Assembly (NCBI GenBank): GCA_043228905.1
Contig: JBHGNT010000005.1
Coordinates: 13,206,001-13,270,000, forward strand
Reading direction: 5' to 3'
DNA from: Azolla caroliniana
Taxonomy: Eukaryota; Plantae; Polypodiophyta
DNA: 64,000 bases
Position 1 is the stretch's first letter. Each line of letters begins with the position of its first letter. The translations under genes and the position numbers were made by a program. Below are positions 1,349-48,600 of the stretch, piece by piece. The notes under the pieces were generated by a model. It had not been told where the DNA came from and searched no databases. It saw nothing but the letters and a program-made list of their open reading frames with translations.

Positions 1349-3538
1349 CTACCCCCCCTTTAAAACGACGAGTTTCACGAGTCGTTTTGGATTGAGGACC
1401 CGGTTTCTCGGGATATCGTCGATGGAAGTCTTCAAGTCCTCACGTATAGTATTGGTAATGTCGGAATCCACGGGCATGTCAAAGATCTGTGCTGCTTGCA
1501 GTCGTGCTGGACCCAAGATTACTTGCTTCTGGTTATCGAAAGCTGGCTCACCGGGACGTGGTGTTAGATACGAACGCCGTGATAATGCATCTGCCTTCCC
1601 TTGGTGCTTCCCCGGACGATATGTAATTTTGAAGTCGAAGCGTGTGAGGAAATGGGCCCACCGAGCTTGACGTCGATTCAGTACACGAGCATCTTGAAAG
1701 TAGGCAAGGTTCTTGTGGTCACTGAATACAGTGACCTGATGAGGAGATCCCTCCAGGAAATGCCTCCATTGCATAAAAGAATCAACTATTGCTAATAGCT
1801 CTTTATCATGAATTTCGTAGTTGATTTCGGCGGCGTCAAACTTACGGGAGTGGAAAGCCACAGGATGTAGCTTCTCGTCGTTACCCTGTTGTGACAGAAT
1901 GCTCCCCAATGCGAAATCCGATGCATCAGCTTCGATAATGAATGGTTTTTCCGGATCCACATGACCTAAAATTGGAGCTGATGTAAACGCCTTCTTAAGA
2001 CTCTCGAAAGCCATGTCCGTCTCTTTAGACCAAATGAATGATTGTCCCTTCCTGGTGAGCTGTGTGAGAGGCAGCACAATTTTTGAGTAATTTTGTATGA
2101 ACTTCCGGTAGAAATTTGCAAAGCCTAGGAAGCATTGCACATCCCGCACCGAACGCGGAGTGTGCCATTCTATCACCGTTTTGACCTTGGCTGGGTCCAT
2201 AGATATGCCTTCTGAGGAGATGACATAGCCGAGAAACTCCACTTGGTTGCACCCGAAACTACATTTCTCTAACTTTGCATACAGACCATGTTCTCGAAGT
2301 CGTTTTAGTACTAATAGTACATGAGAATCATGTTCTTCTTGGGTCTTTGAATAAACCAGTAGATCATCCAAATAGATGATCAAAAAATCATCCAAGAGGT
2401 CTCGAAATATATCATTCGCCATGTGCTGGAAGACTGCCGGCGCATTAGTGAGTCCGAACGGCATGACCGTATACTCGAAGTGCCCATATCTGGTGCGAAA
2501 CGCGGTCTTCCATTCATCTCCTGGTCGGATCCGTACGAGGTTATAGGCTCCTCGTAAGTCGATCTTCGTGAAGAACCTGGCACCGTTGATCCGTTCTAAA
2601 AGACTTGAGATAAGGGGAAGAGCATACCTATTTCTTACTGTGACCTTATTCAAGCCACGGTAATCTACAACGAGTCGAAGCGAGCCATCTTTTTTCTTGA
2701 CGAAGAAAATGGGTGCGCCGGCTGGAGATTTCGAATGCCGAATGAAACCGTTCTCCAAATTCTCCTCTATATAGGCTCGAAGGACTTCTAGCTCGGTTGG
2801 TGACAAATTGTAGATCGGCCCCCATGGCGGCTCTTTTCCCGGTTGTAAGTCGATGGCGCAGTCGTACGGCCGATGATGAGGAAGTGTGTTGGCTTGTACT
2901 TTATCGAACACATCAGCATACTGACGATACTTCTCGGGAAGTTGAACGGTGGACTCCTCTTTGGTGGTGCTGGAGGGTTGTACTGATATTGCAAAGAGAA
3001 ACATTTCCTCCTTGCGCCCTTCCTCACGCAACTGTCGTAGCGAAATGGTTGCAACCTTCTGGGTAGATCCTTGGGTTTGTCGCAACCGGATTTCCCTTGT
3101 CCTCCAATCTATGTCTGGGTCATGTAACTCGAACCATGGTAATCCTAAAACTATGGGATGTTCTGGAATACTAATAATATTAAATGATACTACACATGTT
3201 AAGTTATCTAGGACAATATTAACGGGTTCCAACTCTTCTATGATATTACCAGAAGCAATGGGACGACCATCAATGACTACTACTGAGGCTGGACATGGGA
3301 GCTTTCTGAGAGATATCTGATGAGCTCGGGCAAAATTCCTATCCATGAAGCAAGAATTAGCTCCGGAATCTAGAAGGGCTAAGGTATGTACTGGAGGGGT
3401 ACTTTTAGTACTAACTGCTACTTGGACTACGAACACATCACTAACTTGCTTAGAGGGAATGGAACCACTAATGGGCTGCACAGATCTAGGGCTGTCCAAC
3501 CAAACGGCTCCTATTTTGGCTGGACTTAGTCGTTTAAC
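1349..3538 (-). CDS. pol: Pol of element B (PR-RT-RNaseH, integrase deleted), probably made by -1 frameshift from gag
   Basis: ORF 1349..3499 with LLDSGA, KIDLRGAY, YLDD, EADASD, NRRQARW. The frame is -1 to gag and open across the gag stop. Confidence 0.9.
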   Translation of the reverse strand, partial: VKRLSPAKIGAVWLDSPRSVQPISGSIPSKQVSDVFVVQVAVSTKSTPPVHTLALLDSGANSCFMDRNFARAHQISLRKLPCPASVVVIDGRPIASGNIIEELEPVNIVLDNLTCVVSFNIISIPEHPIVLGLPWFELHDPDIDWRTREIRLRQTQGSTQKVATISLRQLREEGRKEEMFLFAISVQPSSTTKEESTVQLPEKYRQYADVFDKVQANTLPHHRPYDCAIDLQPGKEPPWGPIYNLSPTELEVLRAYIEENLENGFIRHSKSPAGAPIFFVKKKDGSLRLVVDYRGLNKVTVRNRYALPLISSLLERINGARFFTKIDLRGAYNLVRIRPGDEWKTAFRTRYGHFEYTVMPFGLTNAPAVFQHMANDIFRDLLDDFLIIYLDDLLVYSKTQEEHDSHVLLVLKRLREHGLYAKLEKCSFGCNQVEFLGYVISSEGISMDPAKVKTVIEWHTPRSVRDVQCFLGFANFYRKFIQNYSKIVLPLTQLTRKGQSFIWSKETDMAFESLKKAFTSAPILGHVDPEKPFIIEADASDFALGSILSQQGNDEKLHPVAFHSRKFDAAEINYEIHDKELLAIVDSFMQWRHFLEGSPHQVTVFSDHKNLAYFQDARVLNRRQARWAHFLTRFDFKITYRPGKHQGKADALSRRSYLTPRPGEPAFDNQKQVILGPARLQAAQIFDMPVDSDITNTIREDLKTSIDDIPRNRVLNPKRLVKLVVLKGG

Positions 3539-4695
3539 TCTTCTTCTAATTGGCTAAGGACATCAAATTTGTTTGCGAGATTCGGACTATTAGTACTATT
3601 AGGACTATTATGACTATGAGGATTATCAGAGATTCCTACTGACATAGACTCGGGTTTAGTATAGTCAGAACTAACAATGACTTGGTTTACCTGCCTTCTT
3701 GGTCTATGGGGACAGTTTATCGCGATATGCCCTGGTCCACCGCAATAAAGGCATAATCGGTTTGTTCGGCGTCGTTGCTTTTCCTCCTCCGATAGCGGCC
3801 CACGACGACGTGTAGTGTCAATTTCCATTGGAGTTGGAGTACTTACTGGAGGCGCATTATGTGACTCCCTTTGAAAAGGTTTCGCTACCATTGAGGCATA
3901 GGTAGGCTCGGATCTTGCCCTCGGCATCTGAAATTGTCGTTCCGAACGTCGCTCGAAGAGGCGGTTGTCACATCTGACCGCTCGACTGATTGCTTCTGTT
4001 AATGATTTTGGCTCTTCAGGGAAAGTCAAGAGTAAATCCTTGACATCGTTGCGTAGACCATAGCGGAACTGCTCCATCAATGCTTGATCATCCCAGGGGA
4101 TATCGGCGGCGAGTAGGCGGAAATCTGCAGCATATGCGGAGGCTGGACGGTCACCTTGGCGTAATCGCCGGATTTTGTTGATTGCAGTCCTTATGCTGTC
4201 AGTATCTCCAAAACATGCTTTAAACTCACTTATGAATTCTTCAAAATTATTTAGTACTGGAGATTCCTTTTCTAGTAGCGGAGCGAACCATGCTAATGCT
4301 GAGCCATTTAACAACGTGCCTACTAAACCCACTCGTGATGCATCGGTGGGATATCGGGACGGATGCATTTGAATAACTAACCGTACCTGGTTAAGAAACC
4401 CTCTAAACTGCGATCGCGTTCCATCGAACTTCGTGGGAAGGCCAATCTTGGGTTCTTTATGAATCCCTTGTGCTCCGTGCCCTTGTTGTTGCATTGCTAC
4501 GATGGTTGCTTCGAGTTGTTGCACGCGTAACGCAAGTTCCCCATGCTGTTGTTGCGTTTGCTGCTTTTCCAAGGAAATTTGCTGAAGATCCCCCAACAAG
4601 CGTTGATTTTCTTGTTCCAAAGCATGAAACTTCTCTTTCAAGCATTGAAATTCCGAGAAAACGGACTGATACTCTTCAGCGCTAACGGTGGCCAT
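3526..4695 (-). CDS. gag: Gag of element B (coiled-coil N-terminus, capsid, CCHC knuckle)
   Basis: 389-aa ORF with PTKFDG, LRQGDRPASAYAADF, GLRNDVKD, PTPMEID and CLYCGGPGHIAINC. Confidence 0.93.
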   Translation of the reverse strand: MATVSAEEYQSVFSEFQCLKEKFHALEQENQRLLGDLQQISLEKQQTQQQHGELALRVQQLEATIVAMQQQGHGAQGIHKEPKIGLPTKFDGTRSQFRGFLNQVRLVIQMHPSRYPTDASRVGLVGTLLNGSALAWFAPLLEKESPVLNNFEEFISEFKACFGDTDSIRTAINKIRRLRQGDRPASAYAADFRLLAADIPWDDQALMEQFRYGLRNDVKDLLLTFPEEPKSLTEAISRAVRCDNRLFERRSERQFQMPRARSEPTYASMVAKPFQRESHNAPPVSTPTPMEIDTTRRRGPLSEEEKQRRRTNRLCLYCGGPGHIAINCPHRPRRQVNQVIVSSDYTKPESMSVGISDNPHSHNSPNSTNSPNLANKFDVLSQLEEELND

Positions 4696-4784
4696 GGGAT
4701 GAAGGAAAAGGGAAATAAGAGACTAGTAGGAAAGGAGAGAGACAGAAGGAAGAGGGAGACTAGTAGGGAGAAATCGGTTCAAAC

Positions 4785-5241
4785 TGTCAGGAACTCTATT
4801 AAGGCAGAGAAGGAATTAGTACTAAAAGAAGGATTAGTACTATTGTTGGGGAATAGTACTAAGACAGAGAAGGATTAGTACTATGAGAGGTGTCGAACTT
4901 TGAGAGAAGGAATGAGTGAGTGAGAGAGAGAGAGAGAGAGAGAGAGAATGATGATGCGAAAGATATATGTATTATATGACGGAAGATATACAACAGTAGT
5001 TAGAAGGCTTAAGACTGGCGTTGAACCGATTTGGTTCGAACTAATGCCTTGCGCCTCCTTTTATAGTGTCTTCAGGAATACTCCTGAAGTTTCTAGAATG
5101 TTCCAGAGAAATCTGGAATATACATCAATTTCCTAATAAAACCTAAATCAAAATAATATCCTTCAAATTACAACTCATAACCTAATGGTAAAGTCTCGAC
5201 CCGTGTAACAAAAGGTTATGGGTTCGAGTCTAGTTATGACA
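4785..5241 (-). repeat. 5' LTR of element B, with TATAAAA at 5065-5059 on the minus strand
   Basis: Direct repeat of 892-1348; followed on the minus strand by a self-complementary PBS at 4782-4771. Confidence 0.97.
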
Positions 5242-5246
5242 GGTGG

Positions 5247-5776
5247 AAGTGCGGACGACGCACCTAGACGGCATGGCGCTGGGAGACGAGTGGGCGGAAA
5301 GCCACTATTCGAGACCACACTGGGCCCGAGCGACCACGGAAACCCCGGTGAAGATCGGCGATGTCCGGGAACCGGTGATAGCTTTGGTGGACCACGGATC
5401 GGAGATCAATTTGATGTCCATGGACTTCTATAAGAAGGGCAAATGGCCGATCAACACCAAGCACGGGTGGAAGATAAGGGCAGCAACGCGCGCCACCGAG
5501 GAACTGCACGGGGCTTGTCCGAATGTGCGAGTCAAGATTGGCGACGTCGAGATCGACCAGCACTTCTTCGTGCAGGAGACGTCTTCGCATCCGGTCATTC
5601 TAGGAGAGCCGTATATCACGGCGGCGCGAATGGAGACCAAAGTGCTGGACAATGGTTCGGCCTACGCGAGGGTCAAAAGCCAAGACGGGCGCCATTCGGT
5701 CCAGTTTCTGACGGTACGGCCGAACCACGAACGTAACCGCGATTCCCTCGGTTCCGAAAACCGAGAGGATTTTTAG
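5247..5776 (+). pseudogene. End of ORF1 of element A encoding the aspartic protease
   Basis: ALVDHGSEINLM ... VILGEPY retroviral-type protease motifs; ends in GAT TTT TAG. Confidence 0.85.
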
Positions 5777-8700
5777 AGAGGACTGCCAAGGCGTGGGGCC
5801 GCGACAGTCCGGATGCTCCGGAAAAACCCCACATCTGTACGATAAAACCGTGTACAATAGGTAGGAAATTTTGCTTCTCCGACAGCGGAGCATGTACGTT
5901 GGTCGGCATCGCCGGCCGAGAGAAAACAAAGACGGAGGGGAGACTTCGGGCGTGCGGAGTTCTCGGCCCTAACGAAGAAATCAACGGAGCCGTGGAGGCA
6001 GTCTCCTTCGACGACACCTTGGGAATGCTGGGGAGGGTAGTCGAAGAAGACCTTATCGAGGACCGGACGATACCGGTATGTTCCGTAGAAATGTACGAAG
6101 TCATCGCGGACTTCGGTCGAGGGCTCGAGTCGGAACGGGCGGCCCGAGTTAGCACCAAGTACAAGACGGTGGACCGGAAGGTGAGGCCAGTTGCGGCGCC
6201 CTTACCGGAGGGCAGTGAATCCCGGATTAAAGGGGTTGCATCGGACCCCAGCTTACGAGATCGGGCCTGCATAGGACACACCTTCACCAACGAGACGCTC
6301 CGCGAGCTGAAGATCGGTGGGGGCGGGTTCCTACTGCCGGCGGAGGAAGACCGGTTCCGGAGAATGCTCGGAAGGCACGGGAAAGCCTTCGCATTCTCGC
6401 CGGAGGAAATCGGGTGCGCGGACCCGACGATCGTAGAGCCGATGGTGATATTCACGGTACCTCATGTACCGTGGAATCTCAAGCCAATTTCGGTTCCGAG
6501 AGCTCACATCCCGAAGTTGATGGAGCTGTTGAAGCAGAAAGTTGATATGGGCATTCTCGAGCCGTCGAGCGCCCCGTATTCAAACCGCTGGTTTACCGTA
6601 CCAAAGGAAAACGGATCATTGCGCTTCATTCAGGACCTGCAACCGGTCAATAGGGTGACCATTCGGAACGCAGGGATCGGACCGACCATAGACGAGTTCG
6701 CGGAGGCCTTCGCCGGAAGGTCGATTTACTCGGTCGGTGATCTATACTCGGGGTACGACCAGTTCCAGCTAGCCGTGGAAAGCAGAGACATTACGACGAT
6801 GCGAACTCCCCTCGGCCTAGTGCGGATGTGTACGCTGCCGCAAGGAGGGACCAACTCGGTGGCCCACATGGTGAATGCGATGAACAAGGTGCTGAGGGAC
6901 TGCATCCCGGACATCATCATGCCGTTTCTAGACGACATCCCGATCAAGGGATGCCCGGTAGAAGAGAAGGACGAGACGGTCGGGCCGGACGGATGCCGGC
7001 GATTCGTGGTAACGCACATCGACGACTGCGAGAAGGTGCTGCAAAGGCTAGAGGATGCGAGGCTCACCTTCTCGGGGGAGAAGTCAGCCTTCGGGCAGTC
7101 GGAAATCATGGTGGTCGGACATTTATGTGGACCATATGGCCGGAGACCGTCTCCGGCAAAGATAGAAGCCATCTCCGCGATGAAGCCTGATTGCAGCTCG
7201 GTCATGGAAGTACGAAGATTCTTGGGGGCATGCGCCTTCTACCACATATGGATCCCGCATTACGCGCACGTCGCGGAGCCGCTGTACGGATTATTGAAGA
7301 AAGGGCGAAGATTCGAATGGATAGACAAGCACACGGAGTCGGTCCGGAAGCTGAAGGAGGCTCTTTCGGCAGCACCGGCGCTCTGAAAGGCCGTCTACAG
7401 GAAGGGCACCCCAGTGTACATAACGGTTGACACGAGTCCGACCGGAATCGGGTGGGTCGTCAGCCAAGAAGACGAGGACGGCAATCGGTTTCCGATCCGA
7501 TTCGGCGCGAAGGTCCTCAGCGAACGGCAGCGAGGATACGCCCAGGTTAAACGCGAACTCTGGGGTATCGTTTCGGCGGTGAAGGCCGACAAGGACTATC
7601 TGATCGGGACAGAGGTAATCATAGAGACGGATTGCATGCCGATTCTCGGCATGGTTTCCGGATGCGCGACGCCGGACCTGGCAATGCTCAGGTGGATAGC
7701 GTACATCAAGTCCCTGGACCCGGAAATACGACACATTTCCGGGAAAGACAACGCCATGGCCGACATGCTTTCAAGGGCGAGATTCGATGACGAGGGCGGC
7801 ATGGTTTCGGAGGACGAAGAGGTCGGCGTGGACTTCTTCGAGACTGCGTATGTAACAACCGACGGAACAAGCACTCCGGCGCTTAACGACTTCGACGCGA
7901 GCAAGTATGACGGGGAGTGGCTACAGATCGGTGGGTTTTTGAAGACAATGACGCCCGATGCGTCATGGACGAAGGACGAGGCCAACCGGATCCGGAAGAA
8001 AGCGTACCGGTTCTTTCTCCGGGATGGCTATCTATGGAAGCACCCGAAGAAGAGGGACGGCGCTCCGCTCCGGGTGGTGGCGATGAAGGAAGAACAGGAG
8101 GAGCTGCTGACGGCCTACCACGACAGCCCTTGGGCTGGACACCGTGGAACATGGGCTACGTTTGAGAAACTGAAGGGGAAGTATTGGTGGCCGGGGCAGT
8201 ACCGGGACGTGCATCGGTTCGTGACAACTTGCGAGAGCTGTCAGATGCACTCCATAGTCCGATATCGGGACGAGCTTCACCCCACGTACCCTCCGACCAT
8301 CCACTTCAAATGGATGATAGATCTGGTAACGATGCCAATGGGGGTAGGACAGATGCGGTACCTGGTCCTAGCGCGGGAGGATCTGACGAACCAGGTGGAA
8401 GGCCGGGCCCTTCCGAACAAAACGACCGCGGCCGTATGCCGGTTCCTAATCGAGGACGTGATATGCCGGTACGGGTGCGTCGGGAAGATCGTGGCTGACC
8501 GAGGGGAGTTGGACGCCGAAGAAGCCGCGGAGCTGTTCGACCGGCTGGGAGTCAAGCTCTCGCTCACCACTGCGTACAATCCGGAGGCGAATGGAAAGGT
8601 GGAGCGCGGACACGGACCGATCGTCAAGGCGTTGGTTCGGGCATGCGGAGGCCGAGTCGGTGACTGGCCGCGGCTGCTACCTTATGCTTTGTGGGCAGAC

Positions 8701-9255
8701 CGGACCACGCACAGTTCGGTAACCGGGTACATGCCGACGGAGCTCATGTTCGGCCAGAAGCCGATCATGCCGATGGAACGGACGATCTCCTCGTGGGCAA
8801 CGGTCGACTGGAGGGACGAGATGAGCCGGGAGGAGTTGTTGGCCGCGCGCATACGACAGCTCGAGCGGAGACCGGAGGACGTGGAACTGGCTGCGGAGAA
8901 GCTCCGGGTGGCGAGGAAAAAGAACAAAGCCAGGTTCGACCGAACGCACCGGCTCCGACCGAAGAAAATCGAAGAAGGTGACTGGGTGCTCGTCTACGAC
9001 AGCAGCCTCGACAACCAGCACCGAGCTACACGGAAGTTCGCACGAAGGTGGTTCGGGCCTTACGTGGTACGGAGCGCCAATGACAACGGGACATATCACC
9101 TGGCGGAACTCGACGGCACGAGAATGGCGATACCGGTTGCAGGGAAGCGGATCAAAGCGTTCAAGAAGCGACACGACGACGAGCCAGACCCGGCTCTCCT
9201 GGTCAGCAGTGACGAACGATCCGAAAACGAGGAAGAACCGACGGGCGAGGAATGA
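5767..9255 (+). pseudogene. pol: pol (RT-RNaseH-integrase) of element A in the -1 frame, with one nonsense codon at 7384-7386
   Basis: ORFs 5899..7386 and 7414..9255 are in the same frame, which is open back to 5761. TGA sits where the paralog has an Arg codon (CGG). Confidence 0.9.
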
Positions 9256-9326
9256 AGACGGGCCGGTTTTCTCCGTCCCAACTCTCTTGGCGAATACCGG
9301 AGGATGCGCGGTTAGGTGGGGGCGGA

Positions 9327-10103
9327 TGTCGTGAAGAAAACCGTCCATAAGCAGAATCGGCAGACCAAGGCGTGGGAACCGGTTCCTCACGCGCGCACGC
9401 TCCAAGTCGAACATAGAAGCGAGTTAGGAGGATAATCGGCAGGAACGGGCCCTAACACGAGTGGAGACAAAGACCGCGCGAACAGTCTTTTCGGTCGCGC
9501 GCGCGAGCTAAGGGACGGCACGAGTCGGCGGCGTAACTACGCGTATGCGTGAAGAACGGAGCGGATCCCTGTTCGAAAGGGACAGGGAATAAAGCTGACA
9601 GGACGGCCTGCTCGTCGGGCTATATAAGAGCAGGAAAGAGCTGTTGCAGGTATCTCGCGCGGAGAGGACGAAGTGCTGTCGGACCGTTTCTGGACGCTTC
9701 TCTCTCTCTGTTTCCTTCCTTCTTGAGCTCCATAGCTTTCTGTGCAGGGTTCCGAGGAGGCTCGCGCTGTTTCGAGGAACGCCCGAGTGCTTCCGGCAGC
9801 CCCTTTGTGCGTCGAAGTGAACAGGCATCGGCATCTGTTCGCCGGCCTGTTCGGTTGTAACCAACCTGTGCCCCGTCGAGGGTTGTAGTCGTGTTAGCCA
9901 TTTTTCTTAATACACATATTTAGTCATTCGCATCTGTCTGTGTCGGTGTCTGTTCGCGTCCACCGTGCTGAAGGGCCGCGTCCCTGTGTATCCCCGGCCC
10001 TGCGTAGCCGGTTCTCTCCCTTTCTCCTCCCTCGCTTGCTCTTTGGTTCGAGACCCCCGCGGTCCTGCCTCGTTTCCACACGCACTTGCGTAAAATCTCG
10101 ACA
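9327..10103 (+). repeat. 3' LTR of element A (777 bp)
   Basis: TGTCG..CGACA termini, follows the PPT, contains CTATATAAG; the 3' part is similar to the LTRs at 43206 and 49553. Confidence 0.9.
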
Positions 10104-20064: not shown

Positions 20065-22389
20065 CTCCTTTTATAGTGTTCCCAAGAGTACTCCTTAAGT
20101 TTCTAGAATGTTCCAAAGAAATCTGGAATATACATCAATTTTCTATAGTAAAATTTAAATGAAAATAATATTTTTCGTATTACAACATATAGTCTAATGG
20201 TCAAGAGCTCGACCCATGTAACATAAGGTTATGGGTTCGACCGAACTCATCTCTTGAGTACCCCAAGAATATGCATGGCTTGGACTTCATGTCCAGCTTT
20301 GACCTTTGATCATTTGCAACATGCATATATGTCGAGCATTCGAACACTCTCAAGTGCTAGTAAGAGAAGCACTCTCAAGTGCTAGTAAGAGAAGTTTCTT
20401 CTTGTCCACACCCTCTGTGGAACATCACCATTTAGAGACACTAAGGGGAACCCGTTTATAAGATAAACAACCATCAACATTGCCACAACCCAATACAATT
20501 TCGGCAATTTTGCAAGTGACAACATGCTTCATACCCTTTCCATTATGGTTCAGTTCATCCTCTCTGCTAGACCATTCAATTCATGTGTCTTCAGCACTGT
20601 GTAGTCAAGTTTGATACCTTGAGTCTTACAATACATCTCAAACTGGATCTTGTACTCACTACCGTTATCTGTCTGAACAGCCTTCAACTTTTGTCCAGAT
20701 TCTTTTTTAGCCCTAGCATGGAATTGTTTAAAGTCTGACATCACCTGGTCTTTAGTCTTCAATACGAAAGCCCAGAACTTTCTGTTATAGCCATCAATGA
20801 ATGCCACAAAGTATTGTCCACCACGATGTGACATTGCATCCACATAACATACATATGCGTGAACCAATTCTAAAGCAAGCTCTCTTCTCATTGGAGGTCT
20901 AGAATGGAACGTGACCCTATTTTCTTACCAACCAAGCAATCAACACATTTGTCCAGATCCATACCTTTCACTCCTGGGAGGAGATCCTTTCCAGCAAGCA
21001 TATTGTTGAGAGACAAGCTCAACATCGGCCGGTTCGGCTGAAGAAGTCGAGGACCGGATCGGTTGGGACCGATCGGTTAGGCCGAGTGCGTAAACCGGGA
21101 GCGCGTGTCAGCCGCGACGTTGTGTTTGACGAGTCCGCGTCCTGGTACCTGCCCCCGACTACGAACCTCGACTCCCATCCGAGCTCTGACGATGAGGTCA
21201 GCGAGGCCGAGATGCCTCTGGATGAGCCCGAAATCGATACCCACGAGGAGAGTCTGATTTCACTCCAGTTAAGTGGACCGATTGGACGACTGAGTCGGTA
21301 CGACCAGTCCGATGAAGAGCCAGCGAGTGGTGGAGACTCGTCCGTGCATTCCCCGCGCAGGAAGCCGAGGAGACGGCTTACGCGCAAAGAGAAAGGGAAG
21401 AAGAAGGTGTCGGATTTCGGCACGGAAAGGAACGAGTCAGACCGACGCGAGTCCAACTCCGAGGGAACCGGTGACAGGTCTTTAAAGATGAAGACCGCGT
21501 CGACCGAGAACGCCTCGACATCGGCTAATGTGAGATTACGCCGATCTACTCGCCAAAAGAACCCAGTTGTGTGGTTCGGATACAACGAGTACATGGCGCA
21601 TCATTATGCGTACATGACCCGTGTAACGGAAGTGCGTGAGTCGGAGAGCTACGCAGAAGCGGCTAAAGACGCGAATTGGCATGCCGCGATGGAGGAAGAG
21701 ATGCACGCATTGGCAGAGAACGAGACCTGGGACCTAGTTGACACACCAAGAGGGGTAAAACCGATCGGGTGTAGGTGGGTGTACAAGGTCAAGTACAACA
21801 CCGATGGCTCGGTCAACCGGTACAAGGCTCGGCTAGTGGCAAAGGGCTACGCGCAGAAACACGGCATCGACTACGATGAGACGTTTGCGCTGGTCGCGAA
21901 AATGACGACCGTCCGTGTTTTGCTCGTAGTAGCTGCGGTGAAGGGGTGGCACTTACATCAGATGGATGTAAAGAATGTGTTCCTGCAAGGTGACCTTGAG
22001 GAACAGATGTACATGGTACAGCCCCCCGGATTTCACTCTGGAAGGAACTCCTCGGCAGTATGCCGACTGAAGAAGTCCCTTTACGGACTGAAGCAAGCCC
22101 CGCATGCCTGGAACGCGAAGATCACGCAACAACTGCGTCGGATGGGCTTCGTCACGTCAAAATCAAACTCTTCCCTGTTCATCCGGAAAGGTCGACTCGG
22201 ACCGGTTAGTATTTTACTATATGTTGATGACTTGGTCATCACCGGCGCCAACCTACGTGAAATCGACCGTGTGAAGCTCCAACTTGCGGCATCGTTCGAC
22301 ATGAAGGACCTGGGGGACCTTCATTACTTCCTCAGGATCGAAGTGATCCGTACCCCCGAAGGCATATTGATCAGCCAACATCATTACGT

Positions 22390-25300
22390 TGTCGTAGTGT
22401 ATTTTGTACACTACGTGAAAAACGTATATAGTATTAGATTCAATAAAAAATGAAGAAATAGAAGAAAATAGCAAAATAAATGGAACATGCATAGGGCAAG
22501 ATTCGAACCTTGCACCTCCATGTTAATAATGTAATGTCTTACCATTACACTAGCATTTCATTAGTGTTAAAGCATAGATGTCCCACATAGAAAGGTAAAT
22601 TCACGCTAGGATAAACATTAGAAAAACGCATAACAAAAGAAAAAGCTACACATACACATCTAGCGTGCATGATAAAAAACGCACAAGTTAGAAAAAAGCA
22701 TGATCACTTTAGATAAAGCATATAGTCTATCTATAGGAAAAGCATGGGGTCTATAGTTAGAGAAAAAGCATGGATTACTAAGACTTCCTCATCACTACAT
22801 AAGGATGGGAAGCACAATGTAATTGTGTGTGAAAAATATTTGGAAACTAGATATGTTTCTAAAAAACACCAGTTAATAAACTATACTTGTGGGATTCACG
22901 AGAATTCTATATCATTCTCTTTCAACCGAAGTTTATATTCTTATATTCATATTGATTAATCTAATACAATACACTCGTGGGATTCACGAGTTTGCTATAA
23001 CTCTTTCTTACAACATATTTCTATTCTTATTAGCCTTAAAACTCTCCTCTTCCTAGTCCAAAACCCCAGCGGTTCCCACCCGACTCACGAAACGATCTGG
23101 CGCCGAAAGGCACGACACAAGTTGGTGAACCCGACGTGAAGACGGGCTGGAAGGAGACCGACTCAATCGAAACCGAACAACCGATTCCGATTCGGCCGAA
23201 TACGAATCCGATCGGAAGCCGATCAAACCGAAAGTCGATCGGACGAGAGCGATCCGGAAAAAAGTCAAGGTTGATGAAGACAAGAAAGAGGCCAGTAAAA
23301 GACACTACCACGAATGACAAGGGCCAAGAATATGACGAGAGAGAACAAAGAATATGGTGGATCGGATGGCGACAATGGTTCGGGTGGAAAGAATGGGTCT
23401 ATTCAAATGGAGAGACAAAGTCAACATAACAAGAGAAGTCGAGGGTACTACGAGCCGGCAACGAAACCAATCGGGTAGAGACCGGACGGAGGAGACTAAC
23501 AAACACCAACAACTTCGGCACATACCGGAGGATGTGCGGGTTTGGAGGGGGTGAGTGTCGTAGTGTATTTTGTACACTACGTGAAAAACGTATATAGTAT
23601 TAGATTAAATAAAAAATGAAGAAATAGAAGAAAATAGAAAAATAAATGGAACATGCATAGGGCAAGATTCGAACCTTGCACCTCCATGTTAATAATGTAA
23701 TGTCTTACCATTACACTAGCATTTCATTAGTGTTAAAGCATAGATGTCCCACATAGAAAGGTAAATTCACGCTAGGATAAACATTAGAAAAACGCATAAC
23801 AAAAGAAAAAGCTACACATACACATCTAGCGTGCATGATAAAAAACGCACAAGTTAGAAAAAAGCATGATCACTTTAGATAAAGCATATAGTCTATCTAT
23901 AGGAAAAGCATGGGGTCTATAGTTAGAGAAAAAGCATGGATTACTAAGACTTCCTCATCACTATATAAGGATGGGAAGCACAATGTAATTGTGTGTGAAA
24001 AATATTTGGAAACTAGATATGTTTCTAAAAAACACCAATTAATAAACTATACTCGTGGGATTCACGAGAATTCTATATCATTCTCTTTCAACCGAAGTTT
24101 ATATTCTTATATTCATATTGATTAATCTAATACAATACACTCGTGGGATTCACGAGTTTGCTATAACTCTTTCTTACAACATATTTCTATTCTTATTAGC
24201 CTTAAAACTCTCCTCTTCCTAGTCCAAAACCCCAGCGGTTCCCACCCGACTCACGAAACGATCTGGCGCCGAAAGGCACGACACAAGTTGGTGAACCCGA
24301 CGTGAAGACGGGCTGGAAGGAGACCGACTCAATCGAAACCGAACAACCGATTCCGATTCGGCCGAATACGAATCCGATCGGAAGCCGATCAAACCGAAAG
24401 TCGATCGGACGAGAGCGATCCGGAAAAAAGTCAAGGTTGATGAAGACAAGAAAGAGGCCAGTAAAAGACACTACCACGAATGACAAGGGCCAAGAATATG
24501 ACGAGAGAGAACAAAGAATATGGTGGATCGGATGGCGACAATGGTTCGGGTGGAAAGAATGGGTCTATTCAAATGGAGAGACAAAGTCAACATAACAAGA
24601 GAAGTCGAGGGTACTACGAGCCGGCAACGAAACCAATCGGGTAGAGACCGGACGGAGGAGACTAACAAACACCAACAACTTCGGCACATACCGGAGGATG
24701 TGCGGGTTTGGAGGGGGTGAGTGTCGTAGTGTATTTTGTACACTACGTGAAAAACGTATATAGTATTAGATTAAATAAAAAATGAAGAAATAGAAGAAAA
24801 TAGAAAAATAAATGGAACATGCATAGGGCAAGATTCGAACCTTGCACCTCCATGTTAATAATGTAATGTCTTACCATTACACTAGCATTTCATTAGTGTT
24901 AAAGCATAGATGTCCCACATAGAAAGGTAAATTCACGCTAGGATAAACATTAGAAAAACGCATAACAAAAGAAAAAGCTACACATACACATCTAGCGTGC
25001 ATGATAAAAAACGCACAAGTTAGAAAAAAGCATGATCACTTTAGATAAAGCATATAGTCTATCTATAGGAAAAGCATGGGGTCTATAGTTAGAGAAAAAG
25101 CATGGATTACTAAGACTTCCTCATCACTATATAAGGATGGGAAGCACAATGTAATTGTGTGTGAAAAATATTTGGAAACTAGATATGTTTCTAAAAAACA
25201 CCAATTAATAAACTATACTCGTGGGATTCACGAGAATTCTATATCATTCTCTTTCAACCGAAGTTTATATTCTTATATTCATATTGATTAATCTAATACA

Positions 25301-27781
25301 ATACACTCGTGGGATTCACGAGTTTGCTATAACTCTTTCTTACAACATATTTCTATTCTTATTAGCCTTAAAACTCTCCTCTTCCTAGTCCAAAACCCCA
25401 GCGGTTCCCACCCGACTCACGAAACGATCTGGCGCCGAAAGGCACGACACAAGTTGGTGAACCCGACGTGAAGACGGGCTGGAAGGAGACCGACTCAATC
25501 GAAACCGAACAACCGATTCCGATTCGGCCGAATACGAATCCGATCGGAAGCCGATCAAACCGAAAGTCGATCGGACGAGAGCGATCCGGAAAAAAGTCAA
25601 GGTTGATGAAGACAAGAAAGAGGCCAGTAAAAGACACTACCACGAATGACAAGGGCCAAGAATATGACGAGAGAGAACAAAGAATATGGTGGATCGGATG
25701 GCGACAATGGTTCGGGTGGAAAGAATGGGTCTATTCAAATGGAGAGACAAAGTCAACATAACAAGAGAAGTCGAGGGTACTACGAGCCGGCAACGAAACC
25801 AATCGGGTAGAGACCGGACGGAGGAGACTAACAAACACCAACAACTTCGGCACATACCGGAGGATGTGCGGGTTTGGAGGGGGTGAGTGTCGTAGTGTAT
25901 TTTGTACACTACGTGAAAAACGTATATAGTATTAGATTAAATAAAAAATGAAGAAATAGAAGAAAATAGCAAAATAAATGGAACATGCATAGGGCAAGAT
26001 TCGAACCTTGCACCTCCATGTTAATAATGTAATGTCTTACCATTACACTAGCATTTCATTAGTGTTAAAGCATAGATGTCCCACATAGAAAGGTAAATTC
26101 ACGCTAGGATAAACATTAGAAAAACGCATAACAAAAGAAAAAGCTACACATACACATCTAGCGTGCATGATAAAAAACGCACAAGTTAGAAAAAAGCATG
26201 ATCACTTTAGATAAAGCATATAGTCTATCTATAGGAAAAGCATGGGGTCTATAGTTAGAGAAAAAGCATGGATTACTAAGACTTCCTCATCACTATATAA
26301 GGATGGGAAGCACAATGTAATTGTGTGTGAAAAATATTTGGAAACTAGATATGTTTCTAAAAAACACCAATTAATAAACTATACTCGTGGGATTCACGAG
26401 AATTCTATATCATTCTCTTTCAACCGAAGTTTATATTCTTATATTCATATTGATTAATCTAATACAATACACTCGTGGGATTCACGAGTTTGCTATAACT
26501 CTTTCTTACAACATATTTCTATTCTTATTAGCCTTAAAACTCTCCTCTTCCTAGTCCAAAACCCCAGCGGTTCCCACCCGACTCACGAAACGATCTGGCG
26601 CCGAAAGGCACGACACAAGTTGGTGAACCCGACGTGAAGACGGGCTGGAAGGAGACCGACTCAATCGAAACCGAACAACCGATTCCGATTCGGCCGAATA
26701 CGAATCCGATCGGAAGCCGATCAAACCGAAAGTCGATCGGACGAGAGCGATCCGGAAAAAAGTCAAGGTTGATGAAGACAAGAAAGAGGCCAGTAAAAGA
26801 CACTACCACGAATGACAAGGGCCAAGAATATGACGAGAGAGAACAAAGAATATGGTGGATCGGATGGCGACAATGGTTCGGGTGGAAAGAATGGGTCTAT
26901 TCAAATGGAGAGACAAAGTCAACATAACAAGAGAAGTCGAGGGTACTACGAGCCGGCAACGAAACCAATCGGGTAGAGACCGGACGGAGGAGACTAACAA
27001 ACACCAACAACTTCGGCACATACCGGAGGATGTGCGGGTTTGGAGGGGGTGAGTGTCGTAGTGTATTTTGTACACTACGTGAAAAACGTATATAGTATTA
27101 GATTAAATAAAAAATGAAGAAATAGAAGAAAATAGCAAAATAAATGGAACATGCATAGGGCAAGATTCGAACCTTGCACCTCCATGTTAATAATGTAATG
27201 TCTTACCATTACACTAGCATTTCATTAGTGTTAAAGCATAGATGTCCCACATAGAAAGGTAAATTCACGCTAGGATAAACATTAGAAAAACGCATAACAA
27301 AAGAAAAAGCTACACATACACATCTAGCGTGCATGATAAAAAACGCACAAGTTAGAAAAAAGCATGATCACTTTAGATAAAGCATATAGTCTATCTATAG
27401 GAAAAGCATGGGGTCTATAGTTAGAGAAAAAGCATGGATTACTAAGACTTCCTCATCACTACATAAGGATGGGAAGCACAATGTAATTGTGTGTGAAAAA
27501 TATTTGGAAACTAGATATGTTTCTAAAAAACACCAATTAATAAACTATACTCGTGGGATTCACGAGAATTCTATATCATTCTCTTTCAACCGAAGTTTAT
27601 ATTCTTATATTCATATTGATTAATCTAATACAATACACTCGTGGGATTCACGAGTTTGCTATAACTCTTTCTTACAACATATTTATATTCTTATTAGCCT
27701 TAAAACTCTCCTCTTCCTAGTCCAAAACCCCAGCGGTTCCCACCCGACTCAAGAAACGATCTGGCGCCGAAAGGCACGACA
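22390..27781 (+). mobile_element. Tandem array of a non-coding TRIM-like LTR element: 5 LTRs (728 bp; starting 22390, 23556, 24722, 25888, 27054) and 4 internal domains (438 bp), period 1166 bp
   Basis: TGTCG..CGACA termini; 4-bp TSD ACGT (22386-22389 / 27782-27785), whose removal restores the host HYVLSML; PBS TGGTGAACCCGACGTGAA after each of the first four LTRs; PPT ggagggggtgag before each following LTR. Confidence 0.95.
22473..22560 (-). promoter_or_regulatory. tRNA-like Pol III type-2 promoter module (A box, B box, T-run) in the TRIM LTR; repeated at +1166, +2332, +3498 and +4664
   Basis: Minus strand TAGTGTAATGG (22552-22542), then GGTTCGAATC (22509-22500) inside a GCAAG/CTTGC stem, then TTTT downstream. 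Confidence 0.6.
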
Positions 27782-33041: not shown

Positions 33042-33073
<32 letters not shown>

Positions 33074-36141: not shown

Positions 36142-36195
<54 letters not shown>

Positions 36196-42609: not shown

Positions 42610-45600
42610 TAGTGCATTGTTTTGGTACATTGACGTATGCTCGCTAGTCATCCCCATTCCTTCTGAGGACGAGCCGAATTTGTTCGACATCCTCAATGAG
42701 GAAGAAAGTGAGGATGACGTCGATGAGGAACCTGAAGAAGACAAGGAGTGAAGGATCGAGGGGTCGGTTCAGTCGTGCAAGGCATTGTCCCACGAGCGTG
42801 CCAAGTGTTAGTGGGTCGACTACCAGGCTCCGAGTCGGACAAATGTGAAAGGAAGTCAGAGTCGACAAGGTTTGGAGTGGAACAAGTATGAAAGTGCCGG
42901 AGTCGGATTGATGAGTCAGAAATGAATTAACATATATTTTGCCAAGTAGTAAAAATAGTAGAGTTAGTTTGGACAATTTTCTTGTAGTCTTGCCAAGCAC
43001 AAGTGCCAATCTTGAAGAGAGACCCTCAGATCATCTATAAGAAGAGGCAGAGAACATTGTGATCTTATCATTCTATTTTGAATTAATATAAGATTAGTAG
43101 TATATCTTTATCGATTGTGTTCTTACTATTCTGTAATGCTATCTGTGTCGAACTCTAGTTCTGCGTCTACTAATTAATTATATTAAGAATAATAGTCGAT
43201 CACGGTGTCGTGAAGAAAACCGTCCACAAGCGGAATCGGTGCACAGGAGCGTAGGAACCGGCTCTTCTCGAATGTTGTCCATGGAAGATCCTAGGCAGGT
43301 AGATTTAGTGGGTAGGAAGTTAAAGGGGGGGGAAACGGCTCCTTCCCTGCCTATAAAAAGAGGGAGACGCGAAAGAGGAGGGGATCGCGGAGAGTCGAGG
43401 ACGAAGTGCTGTCGGTTTGTGTGCGAAGGCTTCTCTCTCTCTCTCTGGTTCGCAAACTCCATAGCTTCCTTCTGTGCAGGTTTCGGGAGGCTCGCGCTGC
43501 TCTGAGGAATGCCCGAGTGCTTCCGGCAGCACCTCCAACCTACTCCTTCCTTTCCGTGCATTTACGAATAGGTATCGGCATCTGTTCGCCAGCCTGTTCG
43601 GTTGTAACCGTCTTCGTGTTTTGTTGTTAGTCTTTGTTAATACATACATACATTCGTGTCTCTCTGTGTCGTTGCCCCACTCACTTCTTGTGTCGAAGGG
43701 CCGTGTCCCTGTGAATCTACTCTCGCACGTAGTGGGTCTCTTCTCCTTTCTCTCTTGCTCTTTACAGGACCCCCGAGGTCCCGCCTCATTCCACGCATCC
43801 GCGAGGAATACCTCGACATCTTTGGTGAACCCGACGTGAAAGAGGCGGCAGAAGAGCAGAAGATGAAAGGGTCGGATCTTGCAGAGGCCATGGCTTCGGC
43901 CGTGGATCGGATATTGAGTGCACGCGAGGGCACCGACGCCCTCGACAGAGCCATTGAGGCGGTCGTCGGTACGATCAGCCGGTTCAGCGGAAAGGATGCC
44001 ACGAAGTATCTGGCGTCCTACGGGGCAGAAATGTTGATGCGGGATATTCCGGAAGAGAGGCGTCTTGCCGGGTTTCCTCGAGTGGCGATGCCGAGCATCC
44101 ATGCGGAGGTGCTCAAGGTGCGGGCGGAGAGCCGTACCTGGGAGGAGTTCGAAGGCCGAATCCTAGAAAAATACGGGCTGGACGACGTGCTCCGGCTTTC
44201 GAAGCGGGACTTCATGGAATGGGTGGAGTCCCCCGGCAAGGGAAGAAATGCGTCGGCACTCCTCCGGGAGTTCGAAGAACGCTTTGCGCGCCTTTCGGCG
44301 CTTGACCGAACCGTTCTGGATACGAGCCGGGTCCTACTGTTCGTCAAATCGGTGGACGAGCGGGACAGGGATCAAGTCGGCTCCTTGCTGGAAACCGAAG
44401 ACGGGCTGACAACCGACTGGGCTGCGGGTAAGAGAGTTTGTGGCCGTTTCGACAAACGGCGAGAATGGGTTGACAACGGGGCGGCCGGTGCGGGCTCTGT
44501 CACAGCAAGGAGGCTTGAACCGGCGCCGCAAGTGCGAAGGGAAGAAACCCGGGAATGGCTCAAAACCGGTCCGGCTTCGACCGGCATGGTCAATGGCTCG
44601 TCCGGAGGAGCGGCGCTGGAGGAGTTGACGCGGGCGATAAAGGATCTCCAGATCGCCCACACTCGAAGGGAAGGCGGCGAACCGGCTTGTGACGGACGGC
44701 CGGCAGTGGGGAACAGGTGCATGTGGTGCGACGAGGTCGGCCACATTCGGAAGGACTGCGGCGATTTCGCAGAGGCGTTGAGAAATCGGGTGGTGTACCT
44801 GTGGGAAGGCCAGGTGCACGCTGGCGACACCAGGAGGGCCCTGAGCCGAAACGACGGGTGAGGAGGTATGAAGAGACTGATGGAAGACGCAGTGGCCCGA
44901 CACGTGGAGGCCATCCACTACTCGGCGTCGGCCGGTATTCGGGTCGGGGGCAGCGAGGCCCAAAAGGAGAGCAAAGACGGTTTCTGGTCTGCAATGCTGG
45001 AAGGCCTCGCCGGCGCACGGCTGAGGAAAGATGAAACGGACCGCGCTGAGAGACGGGTCCGGGAAATAACCGGGTGGAGCGATCCGGTCGAGGAGAAGAC
45101 CGGCTTCGTAGAAGTCGTCTACCGGAACTACGAGGCTCTGGTAGAAGAAAAACAAGTGGGGAAAGCCGGAGCGGCCGGGCCCTCGCAACGGTACGAGACC
45201 CGATTCGGGCAATGACGGAATGATGCCGGTGGGTCCGGCCCGCAAGATAACCCCAGGAAGGACGGGTACCGACTGGGGACAGAAATAGAAAGGACTACGG
45301 ACCTACGAAAGGTCCTAGAAGAACGGATCCTCGACAGCAAAGTGGAGCTGTCATTGCGGGAGGTGCTAGGGATCGCCAAGAAGGAGTTCCACGACTCCAT
45401 TGTAGACTTGGTGAAACGGAAGAGACTTTCGACGGAGACGGAATTGGAAAGACCGGTGGAGGTGCGGACGACGCACATCGACGACTCGGCGTTGGAAGAT
45501 GAGTGGGCGGAGAGCCACTATTCGAGGCCACACTGGGCCCGAGCGACCACGGAGACCCCGGTAAAGATCGGAGATGTTCAGGAACCGGTGGTGGCGTTGG

Positions 45601-48600
45601 TGGACCACGGTTCGGAAATAAACCTAATGTCCATGGACTTCTATAAGAAGGGAAAGTGGCCGATCAACACCAGGCACGGGTGGAAGATACGGGCGGTGAC
45701 GCGCGCCACCGAGGAACTGCACGGGGCCTGCCCGAATGTGCGAGTAAAGATCGGCAACGTCGAGATTGACCAGCACTTCTTCGTACAGGAGACGTCCTCG
45801 CATCCGGTCATATTAGGGGAACCATACATCACGGCGGCGCGAATGGAGACCAAGGTGCTGGACAACAGTTCAGCCTACGCGAGGGTCAAGAGCCAGGACG
45901 GGCGCCATTCGGTCCAATTTCTGACGGTGCGACCAAACCACGAACGGAACCGCGAATCCCTCGGTGGCGAGAACCGGGAGGATTTTTAGAGAGGGTTGCC
46001 AAGGCGTGGGGCCGAGACAGTCCGGACACTCGGGAAAGACCCCACAACTGTATGATAGAACCGAAACCGAAGAAACCTTGTACGATAGGTGGAAAATTTT
46101 GCTTCTCCAACGACGGAGGGTGTATGATGGTCGGCATCGTTGGCCGAGAAAAGGCAAGGGCGGGGCAAGGGCGGAGGAGCGACTTCGAGCGTGCGGAGTC
46201 CTCGGCCCGGACGAGGAAATCAGCGGAGCCGTGGAGGCGGTCTCCTTCGACGACACCTTGGGGATGCTGAGGAAGGTAGCCGGAGAAGACCTTAACGAAG
46301 ACCGGACGATACCGGTATGTTCCGAAGAGATGTACGAAGTCATCGCGAACTTCAGTCGGGGGCTTGGGTCGGATCGGACGGCCCGAGTTAGCACAAAGTA
46401 CAAGATTGTGGACCGGAAGGTAAGGCCAGTCGCGGCACCCTTGCCGGAGGGCAGCGAGTCCCGAATCAGAGAGGTGGCGTCGGACCCCAGTTTACGAGAT
46501 CCGGCCGGCATAGGACACACCTTCACCGACGGGACGCTCCGGGAGCTCAAAATCGGTGGGGGCGGGTTCCTACTGCCGGCGGAGGAAGACCGGTTTTGGA
46601 GAATGCTCGGAAGGCACGGGAAAGCATTCGCATTCTCACCGGAAGAGATCGGGTGCGTAGACCCGATGGTGATATTCACGGTACCGCATGTGCCGTGGAA
46701 TCTCAAGCCGATTCCGATACCGAGAGCTCACATCCCGGAGTTGATGGAGCTACTGAGGCAGAAAGTCGATATGGGTATTCTCGAACCGTCGAGCGCGCCA
46801 TACTTGAACCGATGGTTTACCGTACCAAAGAAAAACGGAACATTGCGCTTCATTCAGGACCTGCAGCCGGTCAACAGAGTGACCATTCGGAACGCAGGAA
46901 TCGGACCGACCATAGACGAGTTCGCGGAAGCCTTCGCCGGAAGGTCGATTTACTCGGTCGGTTATCTGTACTCGGGGTACGACCAGTTCTAGCTAGCCGT
47001 GGAGAGCAGAGACATTACGACTATGCGAACTCCCTTCGGCCTAGTGCGAATGTGTACCCTGCCGCAAGGAGGGACCAACTCGGTGGCCCACATGGTGAAT
47101 GCAATGAACAAGGTACTGAGGGATTGCATCCCGAACATCACCATGCCGTTCCTAAACGACATCCCGATCAAAGGGTGCCCGGTAGAAGAGAGGGACGCAA
47201 CACTCGGACTGGACGGATGCCGGCGATTCGTGGCAACACACATCGACGACTGCGAGAAGGTGCTACGAAGGCTAGAGGACGCGAGGCTCACCTTCTCCGG
47301 GGAGAAATCGGCCTTCGGGCAATCGGAAATCCTGGTGGTCGGACACCTATGTGGACCATATGGCCGGAACTCGTCTCCGGCAAAGGTAGAAGCCATCTCC
47401 GCGATGAAGACCGACTGTAGCTCGGTTACGGAAGTTCGGAGGTTCCTGGGGGCGTGCGCATTCTACCACATATGGATCCCACATTACGCCCACGTTGCGG
47501 AGCCGCTATACGGGTTGCTGAAGAAAGGGCAAAAATTCGAGTGGCGAGACAAGCACACGCAGTCGGTCCGGAAGCTGAAGGAAGCTCTTACGGCAGCACC
47601 GGCGCTCCGGAAGGCTGTCTACGAGAAGGGTACCCCGGTATACATAACGGTGGATACGAGTCCGACCGGGATCGGATGGGTCGTCAACCAAGAAGACGGG
47701 GACGGCATTCGGTTCCCGATCCGATTCGGCGCGAAGGTCCTCAGTGAGCGACAGCGAGGGTACGCCCAGGTTAAACACGAACTCTGGGGTATCGTTTCGG
47801 CAGTAAAGGCCGACAAAGACTACCTGATCGGGACGGAAGTGATCGTCGAGACGGATTGCCTGCCAATCCTTGGCATGGTTTCCGGATGCGCGACACCAGA
47901 CCTGGCGATGCTCAGGTGGATAGCATACATCAAGTCCCTGGATCCAGAAATACGGCACATTTCCGGAAAGGACAACGCCATGGCCGACATGCTTTCAAGG
48001 GCGAGGTTTGATGACGAGGGCGGCATGGTTTCGGAGGACGAAGAAGTCGGCGTGGACTTCTTCGAGGCGGCGTACGTGACGACCGATGGGACGAGCACTC
48101 CGGCGCTTAATGGCTTCGACGAGAGCAAGTACGACGGCGAGTGGCTCCAGATCGGTAGGTTTCTGAGGACAATGACGCCAGATGCGTCATGGACGAAGGA
48201 CGAGGCCAATCGGGTCCGGAAGAAAGCTTACCGATTCTTTCTCCGGGACGGATACTTATGGAAGCACCCGAAGAAGAGGAACGGCGTCCCGCTCCGGGTG
48301 GTGGCGATGAAGGAAGAACAGGAAGAGCTTCTGACGGCCTACCACGACAGCCCTTGGGCTGGACACCGTGGAACGTGGGCCACGTTCGAGAAGATAAAGG
48401 GGAAGTACTGGTGGCCGGGACTATACCGGGACGTGCATCGGTTCGTGACAACTTGCGAGAGTTGTCAGATGCACTCCGTGGTCCGACACCGGGACGAGCT
48501 TCACCCTACGTACCCTCCGACCATCCACTTCAAATGGATGGTAGACCTGGTGACGATGCCAATGGGAGTAGGACAGATGCGGTATCTGGTCCTAGCTCGG

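What the first reader, a model, noticed from the sequence alone, without database searches (positions are those of the whole stretch)
23118..23555. The TRIM's autonomous helper family appears to be in the same window
Seen: the TRIM shares with gypsy copies A/A2 the TGTCG..CGACA termini, a 4-bp TSD and the identical 18-nt PBS TGGTGAACCCGACGTGAA. It also shares a pre-PPT block (TRIM cataccggaggatgtgcgggtttggaggggg vs A aataccggaggatgcgcggttaggtggggg), while the rest shows no evident similarity. Known: that PBS is complementary to the 3' end of plant tRNA-Trp. Inference: these few motifs are the minimal cis-signals for trans-mobilisation; helper elements of most TRIMs are uncertain.
Basis: partly seen in the sequence, partly recalled or inferred. 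Interest (0 to 1): 0.7.

Follow-up and report, generated by a model that had tools for sequence, protein, structure and literature searches.

The report
Mini-retrotransposon's parent is not its neighbour
A small non-coding jumping gene shares only lineage-wide copying signals with the larger element next to it, while its body and repeat ends match a different, gag-only family, so it is likely a cut-down copy of that family and likely borrows proteins from that branch rather than from its neighbour.

Summary
The shared motifs are real: PBS 18/18 with A2, TGTCG..CGACA ends, 4-bp TSDs (ACGT, ACGG), pre-PPT block. They do not identify a helper. tRNA-Trp PBS plus 4-bp NCGN TSD is the published signature of the whole Phygy lineage, and the same LTR-end/PBS junction falls into 37 LTR-end clusters among 117 junctions. 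The internal region does have relatives: it is the leader plus the 3' tail of gag-only elements (P0121 49/49 aa, P0127 61% over 139 aa). Contigs from two of four runs laid match the element up to 23157, then enter that gag. Gag-protease elements with the same LTR end exist (P0143, P0149); their pol was not seen in cis. A and A2 carry stops. The element is a 1,894-bp unit in an L5I4 array, too long for a strict TRIM. Side result: the pre-PPT block is a covarying hairpin. The scan had not noted this element before.

The parts
22390..27781 (+). Tandem array of the non-autonomous element: 5 LTRs and 4 internal regions (L5I4), period 1166 bp
   Evidence: internals identical, 7 variable LTR sites
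22386..22389 (.). Left TSD ACGT (right copy 27782-27785); NCGN type
22390..23117 (+). LTR1, 728 bp, 34% GC, TGTCG..CGACA (LTR2 23556-24283, LTR3 24722-25449, LTR4 25888-26615, LTR5 27054-27781)
22868..23117 (+). 3' part of the LTR (U5 side) shared at 74-84% with the 'MENQ' Gag sub-lineage (L002, L037, L058, L095, L097, L099, L104, L117), not with A/A2
23123..23140 (+). Primer binding site, 18 nt; identical in A2 and in 120 of 124 fetched junctions; exact complement of the plant small RNA miR894 as printed in PMC5846777; tRNA-Trp identity from REXdb table and recall
23141..23157 (+). Short leader, near-identical to the leader that precedes the gag ATG in L002 and L095; inferred deletion junction at about 23147-23157
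23150..23551 (+). Remnant of the 3' end of the long ORF of gag-only elements (two frames, no start codon of the parent, no Pfam domain in the parents)
23518..23537 (+). Pre-PPT hairpin (8 pairs, one bulge), conserved across families with changes on both sides at 3 pairs
23544..23555 (+). Polypurine tract abutting the next LTR
   Evidence: sequence
43206..50168 (+). Element A2: Phygy-type gypsy, LTRs 613/616 bp (605 of 613 identical), TSD ACGG, PBS 43823-43840, Gag(DUF4100)-PR-RT-RH-INT with four premature stops, no chromodomain hit
1..10103 (+). Element A: relative of A2 (85-88%), 5' end outside the window, split by element B (892-5241), stop at 7384, 3' LTR 9327-10103, 3' flank CCGC
20915..22389 (+). 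Copia RT gene into which the array is inserted (continues after 27785)
   Evidence: RVT_2 E 2e-77

Best explanation
The element is a non-coding Ty3/gypsy LTR retrotransposon that shares only lineage-wide signals with A/A2 and likely arose by internal deletion from a gag-only family of another Phygy-type branch, whose members likely supply the proteins that move it. Shown: its LTR end, leader and whole internal region match that branch (Gag starting M-E-N-Q). Inferred steps: (1) a deletion joined the leader, just before the gag ATG, to the last ~400 nt of the gag-only ORF; (2) the LTR drives an RNA that keeps PBS, U5-leader stem, pre-PPT hairpin and PPT; (3) Gag of its own branch packages it, and RT and integrase come from Gag-protease-pol members that carry the same LTR end; (4) a Phygy-type integrase inserted it at an NCGN site with a 4-bp TSD; (5) the L5I4 array likely grew afterwards by unequal LTR recombination. 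A and A2 are broken copies of a more distant family; their presence 12-15 kb away says nothing about who helps.
For: Lineage signature: Phygy 4-bp TSD 100% (NCGN), tRNA-Trp PBS 81%, n=186. 37 LTR-end clusters among 117 junctions share the PBS junction; full 18-mer in 120 of 124. LTR-end score against the element: 8 loci 83-199, A2 22 (rank 67 of 110), A 18; pre-PPT: 16 of 122 loci score 52-77, A 39, A2 33. Internal region translates into the C-termini of P0121 (49/49), P0127 (61% over 139 aa, E 3e-56), P0128, P0129; nothing comparable in A/A2. P0128 and P0129 read through into an LTR start that matches the element's (P0128: 25 of 26 residues). P0143 and P0149 (Gag + DUF4100 + protease, cluster of 57) begin in an LTR end that matches the element's at 15 of 16 residues. 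In runs X1 and X6, 15 contigs each match the element to 23157 and continue into the M-E-N-Q gag start; that gag is covered at >=85% in 4 of 4 runs. 87, 62, 61 and 31 contigs show this family's LTR end followed in majority by ACGT or CCGT. Gag tree: A2 and the MENQ group (92/98) lie on separate branches.
Against: No element with the same LTR end and a complete pol was seen in one piece: L058 stops in gag, L061 has MENQ-type Gag-protease followed by pol but another LTR end. Only the 3' third of the LTR matches the fetched MENQ loci (L002: positions 486-728), so these are relatives, not the direct parent. Descent does not prove who mobilises it today. The cis-signals are lineage-wide, and own-family U5-leader pairing ranked first in only 1 of 40 families, so nothing shown would stop another family from helping. 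The Gag tree rests on 110 columns and its deep forks are weak.
Confidence: 0.65

Rival explanations
1. Same origin, but a shared pool of helpers: the element is packaged by Gag from its own (possibly gag-only) branch and uses RT and integrase from any active Phygy-type family, A/A2's included, because the signals are common to all.
For: PBS, termini, NCGN target and hairpin are lineage-wide. Many pol-less derivatives with different LTRs keep the same signals: L001, L021, L036, L048, L057, L078, L091, internal regions 0.2-2.3 kb. L061 joins a MENQ-type gag to another LTR end, a sign of exchange between families. Family specificity of the U5-leader duplex is weak.
Against: Gag-protease elements with the element's own LTR end exist, so a closer helper is on hand. 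In published TRIM-helper pairs LTR identity is 79-98% (PMC4717578). That Pol is packaged through its own Gag-Pol, which favours the same branch, is recalled, not tested.
Confidence: 0.25
2. One reading: the A/A2 family is the specific helper.
For: Identical 18-nt PBS, same 5-nt ends, 4-bp NCGN TSD, 82.5% match over 40 nt at the PPT, compensated hairpin pair in A2. A2 is fairly young (8 mismatches in 613) and close relatives are present elsewhere (L015 86.6%).
Against: No LTR or internal similarity; outranked on the LTR end and on the pre-PPT block; Gag on another branch, 27-43% identical; both local copies broken. Position in the same window has no bearing on help in trans.
Confidence: 0.07
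3. The five-LTR array is partly an assembly error; the true locus has fewer units. This would not change the origin of the unit.
For: The four internals are identical and LTR2 equals LTR3; no listed contig spans the stretch.
Against: Seven variable LTR sites; the three private to LTR1 (52, 483, 499) all lie 5' of the two private to LTR5 (632, 699), as unequal exchange predicts (1 in 10 by chance, so weak). L5I4 arrays are documented and PCR-checked in maize (PMC4717578).
Confidence: 0.1

Closest known systems
Phygy lineage, non-chromovirus Ty3/gypsy (REXdb; Neumann et al. 2019, PMC6317226; passages and Additional file 5 read, files 1 and 3 too large to read)
   Same: 4-bp NCGN TSD, tRNA-Trp-type PBS, no chromodomain, no extra RNase H, coding region filling the internal part (A2).
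   Different: A2 is 6,963 bp, below the 7,656-9,968 range given for Physcomitrella; no Phygy reference sequence was available for a tree; non-coding and gag-only derivatives are not part of that survey.
TRIMs and tandem-array TRIMs (Gao et al. 2016, PMC4717578; passages and section 18 read)
   Same: Non-coding, LTR-PBS-PPT-LTR, TSD kept, L5I4 array; origin by internal deletion as for OsajRetroS10 from OsajLTRA10.
   Different: Unit 1,894 bp with 728-bp LTRs; 4-bp rather than 5-bp TSD; that survey found no TRIM in Physcomitrella; closest parent here is gag-only, not gag-pol.
TR-GAG and other non-autonomous LTR elements (PMC13570524; passages and section 32 read)
   Same: The parent family has LTRs, PBS, PPT and one long ORF starting with a Gag N-terminus, with no protease or pol. 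That paper treats TRIM, long-TRIM, TR-GAG and LARD as one continuum and links families to partners by LTR similarity or coding remnants.
   Different: The parent ORFs hit no Pfam family; their Gag nature rests on similarity to the N-terminus of Gag-protease proteins (52-70%).
Cassandra tandem arrays (PMC7215508; passages read)
   Same: LTR-sharing tandem arrays, explained by LTR recombination, template switching or unequal crossing-over.
   Different: No 5S-derived LTR was looked for; LTRs here are far longer and a parent family is traceable.

Membership tests
Phygy (A2 and relatives) | 4-bp TSD of NCGN type | tested here: met
   A2 ACGG, A 3' flank CCGC; 12 of 13 readable flanks of A2-like loci NCGN; CG background 3.5-8.6% of positions
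Phygy (A2 and relatives) | PBS complementary to tRNA-Trp | tested here: inconclusive
   PBS is the exact complement of miR894, ending CCA (PMC5846777); no tRNA-Trp gene could be fetched (0 of 31 loci). Isotype rests on recall and on the REXdb table
Phygy (A2 and relatives) | Gypsy domain order, no chromodomain, no additional (archaeal-type) RNase H, which separates it from TatI (also 4 bp, tRNA-Trp) | tested here: met
   Pfam: DUF4100, RVT_1, RT_RNaseH, Integrase_H2C2, rve; no Chromo or RNase_H hit
Phygy (A2 and relatives) | RT-RH-INT phylogeny groups with REXdb Phygy references | not testable with these tools
   REXdb fasta too large to read
Phygy (A2 and relatives) | Length 7.7-10.0 kb | tested here: not met
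   A2 is 6,963 bp; range is from one species
TRIM, strict sense | Under 1 kb, or under 1.5 kb in the wider definition | tested here: not met
   Unit 728+438+728 = 1,894 bp; thresholds from PMC13570524
TRIM, strict sense | Non-coding internal region with PBS and PPT between direct repeats, TSD | tested here: met
   only a broken ORF remnant
Helper pair with A/A2 | LTR similarity of 70-98%, or shared internal sequence beyond PBS/PPT | tested here: not met
   criteria
Helper pair with A/A2 | Helper copy has intact Gag-Pol | tested here: not met
   four stops in A2; one stop and an insertion in A; other genomic copies could not be examined
Derivative of the MENQ gag-only family | Shared LTR ends, leader and internal sequence | tested here: met
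Derivative of the MENQ gag-only family | Pol-bearing member with the same LTR in the same genome | tested here: inconclusive
   Gag-protease with the same LTR end seen; pol in cis not seen
Any helper pair | Co-packaging or trans-mobilisation shown by experiment | not testable with these tools
   needs VLP sequencing or complementation

The most novel reading that the evidence does not exclude
Phygy-type elements form a three-tier parasite chain in one branch: gag-pol elements, gag-only elements that keep a 530-670 aa ORF and supply capsid, and non-coding minis cut from the gag-only tier. All tiers keep a structured cis-kit (U5-leader stem around the PBS, covarying hairpin before the PPT) that is common to the whole lineage, so packaging by Gag, not priming or integration, would decide who helps whom, and the 438-bp internal region would bracket the minimal packaging signal of a plant gypsy element.
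Probability: 0.3. Interest if true: 0.5.

Novelty: new member of a known kind. Interest (0 to 1): 0.28.

Why it matters
It shows why a shared PBS, termini and TSD length cannot name a helper family: they mark the lineage. The corrected picture gives a traceable descent (gag-pol branch, gag-only family, non-coding mini element) in a seed-free plant lineage where an earlier survey found no TRIM in Physcomitrella, and a natural minimal element for mapping cis-signals. I found no paper on non-autonomous Phygy derivatives or on the pre-PPT hairpin in four searches (listings only for most hits), which is weak evidence. Deletion derivatives, gag-only elements and tandem arrays are all known in other plants, so the interest is modest.

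Tried and rejected
No genome is held and the metagenome records behind the loci are not held, so no genome-wide TSD census and no extension of L095, L097, L099, L104, L117. Viral and prokaryote collections gave no relatives; two prokaryote pattern hits were taken as chance and not used. No tRNA-Trp gene could be fetched, so the idea that U5 motifs pair with the tRNA's T arm or anticodon arm stayed untested; the conserved CACGC motif (19 of 42 cluster representatives) is explained as well by pairing with the PBS's own 3' end. The U5-leader duplex is stronger for own than for foreign leaders on average (-18.2 vs -16.7 kcal/mol, 0 of 10,000 permutations) but ranks first in only 1 of 40 families, so a family-specific lock was rejected. 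Single-sequence folding of the pre-PPT block is no better than shuffles (z -0.36, 1.63, -0.07); support for the hairpin is from covariation only, among related sequences picked by similarity to this block. No RNA holder listed. The host was not identified: the zinc-finger gene matched only in its fingers (Sphagnum, Diphasiastrum, Adiantum). The PBS string was in no paper searched. Gag tree: 47 of 63 candidate sequences kept by similarity; junctions without an open gag start were dropped. Supplements not seen: REXdb files 1 and 3, and those of the other papers; they could hold Phygy termini or PPT data.

Full report
Anatomy. The interval 23118-23555 is the first of four identical 438-bp internal regions in an array of five 728-bp LTRs, 22390-27781. 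The array starts TGTCG, ends CGACA, is flanked by ACGT on both sides and interrupts a copia RT gene. One unit is 1,894 bp, above the 1-kb and 1.5-kb limits used for TRIMs (PMC13570524, passages). A2 (43206-50168) has the same ends, TSD ACGG and the same 18-nt PBS. A lacks its 5' end in the window, so its PBS and TSD cannot be checked; its 3' flank is CCGC. A2 has four in-frame stops; A has one and is split by element B. Between the unit and A/A2, blastn finds only the PBS (19 nt) and the PPT region (40 nt, 82.5%) below E 0.02.

The shared signals mark a lineage. REXdb gives Phygy a 4-bp TSD in 100% of 186 elements, with an NCGN preference, and a tRNA-Trp PBS in 81% (PMC6317226, passages and Additional file 5). 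All three target sites visible in the window are NCGN. A2 has the gypsy order, no chromodomain and no extra RNase H; named relatives of A's pol come from Riccia and Adiantum. A tree against Phygy references could not be made, so the assignment rests on these features. Of 124 junctions 120 carry the full 18-mer; the last 60 nt of the LTR fall into 37 clusters at 80% among 117 junctions, A2 and the small element included. Twelve of 13 readable flanks of A2-like loci are NCGN. The PBS is the exact complement of miR894 as printed in PMC5846777 (passages); that this is the 3' end of tRNA-Trp is recalled and fits the REXdb table, but no tRNA gene was fetched.

Other families match better. Scored against the last 200 nt of the small element's LTR, eight loci reach 83-199; A2 scores 22 (rank 67 of 110) and A 18. 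Scored against the pre-PPT block, 16 of 122 loci (14 contigs) reach 52-77; A scores 39 and A2 33. Most of the LTR-matching loci go on after the PBS into nearly the same leader and a gag that starts M-E-N-Q or similar.

The internal region has a parent. Searching with the L002 gag gave 12 longer proteins. The internal region translates into the C-termini of four of them: P0121 (last 49 residues identical, 56% over the 97 before), P0127 (61% over 139, E 3e-56), P0129 and P0128. These start with the MENQ Gag N-terminus, run 531-673 aa, show no Pfam family where scanned (P0121, P0127, P0128) and end at the PPT or read into an LTR start matching the element's (P0128: 25 of 26 residues). They behave as gag-only elements. 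A second set (P0124-P0126, P0143, P0149) has the same Gag start followed by DUF4100 and protease; P0143 and P0149 begin inside an LTR end that matches the element's at 15 of 16 residues. Their Gag-protease is 43% identical to A2's. On a Gag tree (47 of 63 candidates, 110 columns) the MENQ group has support 92/98 and A2 lies elsewhere. L061 shows a MENQ-type Gag-protease followed by pol, under a different LTR end; a pol under the element's own LTR end was not seen.

The parent branch occurs with the element. Twenty listed runs from 13 studies hold the element or part of it. In two of the four laid, 15 contigs each follow the element to 23157 and then enter the MENQ gag start; that table shows only its best rows. 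Other contigs join the element at 23147-23161 from different upstream sequence, as the gag-only parent would. The L002 gag is covered at 85% or more in all four runs, and 87, 62, 61 and 31 contigs show this LTR end followed in majority by ACGT or CCGT. These runs are not shown to be the window's species.

The cis-signals are structured. In 19 aligned 3' ends the pre-PPT block folds into an 8-pair hairpin; 95% of cells pair, three pairs change on both sides (6 cells; 0 of 500 shuffles, 4 of 500 for the pair count), and slid controls pair at 14-59%. The sequences are related and were picked by this block, and single-sequence energies do not beat shuffles, so this is moderate support. U5 can pair with the PBS 3' end and leader; own pairs are stronger on average, but the effect is small and not family-specific. 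The element's U5 pairs best with the leaders of L002 and L095 (-21 kcal/mol) and less well with A2's (-16). A U5-leader stem in retroviruses is recalled; one search was read as a listing only. Other pol-less derivatives with 0.2-2.3 kb internal regions keep the same signals.

Mechanism. Shown: sequence descent from the MENQ branch, lineage-wide signals, broken A and A2. Inferred: deletion from a gag-only element, packaging by own-branch Gag, RT and integrase from own-branch gag-pol copies, NCGN integration, and later array growth by unequal LTR exchange (private sites of LTR1 all 5' of those of LTR5; a 1-in-10 pattern by chance). I put 0.65 on this, 0.25 on a shared pool of Phygy helpers and 0.07 on A/A2 as the specific helper.

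Comparison. Deletion-derived TRIMs with partners of 79-98% LTR identity and L5I4 arrays are in PMC4717578 (passages, section 18); gag-only families and the continuum of non-autonomous sizes in PMC13570524 (passages, section 32); array mechanisms in PMC7215508 (passages). PMC7466625 and PMC6911290 (passages) added nothing on non-autonomous Phygy elements. The host is probably a seed-free land plant; it was not identified. Earlier scan notes on this genome concern another gypsy lineage. Verdict: real motifs, wrong helper; a new member of a known kind.

Noticed in passing
window 892-5241 (-): Element B: gypsy with LTRs identical over 457 of 457 bp, 5-bp TSD GGTGG, inserted into A's gag region; no TGG-type tRNA PBS after the LTR, so possibly self-priming (Tcn1-like, recalled). 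Element C (about 12260-18644) is a decayed relative.
   Followed up: partly
window 36103-42038 (-): Copia element with LTRs 92% alike and a tRNA-Met-type PBS (motif recalled); related to the copia at 20.9-29.4 kb and to copies at 54.7-64 kb.
   Followed up: no
window 30923-35122 (+): A 1,399-codon open frame with three C2H2 zinc fingers, between retroelements; relatives match only in the fingers.
   Followed up: partly
window 56185-63457: Copia-related repeats holding a 54-bp tandem unit, in three to four copies.
   Followed up: no
window 51266-53024 (+): Decayed gypsy pol fragments, 20-28% identical to Phygy-type pol; could belong to another lineage.
   Followed up: no
L001, L036, L048, L057 (internal 2.0-2.3 kb): Further pol-less elements with one open frame of 623-664 codons and no Pfam hit; several end in a conserved tryptophan-rich motif (RIWWIGW) also present in the small element's remnant. 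The role of this tail is unexplained.
   Followed up: partly
L091:303-512; L078:733-3087: A 209-bp internal region with PBS and PPT (true TRIM size) under another LTR family, and a tandem arrangement with a 1,665-bp internal region.
   Followed up: no
window 23053-23112 and 43754-43813: A loosely conserved U5 block (GGTCC..GACCCC..GGT.CC.CC) 30-60 nt before the LTR end in about half of 42 cluster representatives, shared by the small element and A/A2.
   Followed up: partly
window 23123-23140: The PBS is a perfect target for miR894, so that small RNA could silence the whole lineage; PMC5846777 raises the same question for gypsy repeats.
   Followed up: no
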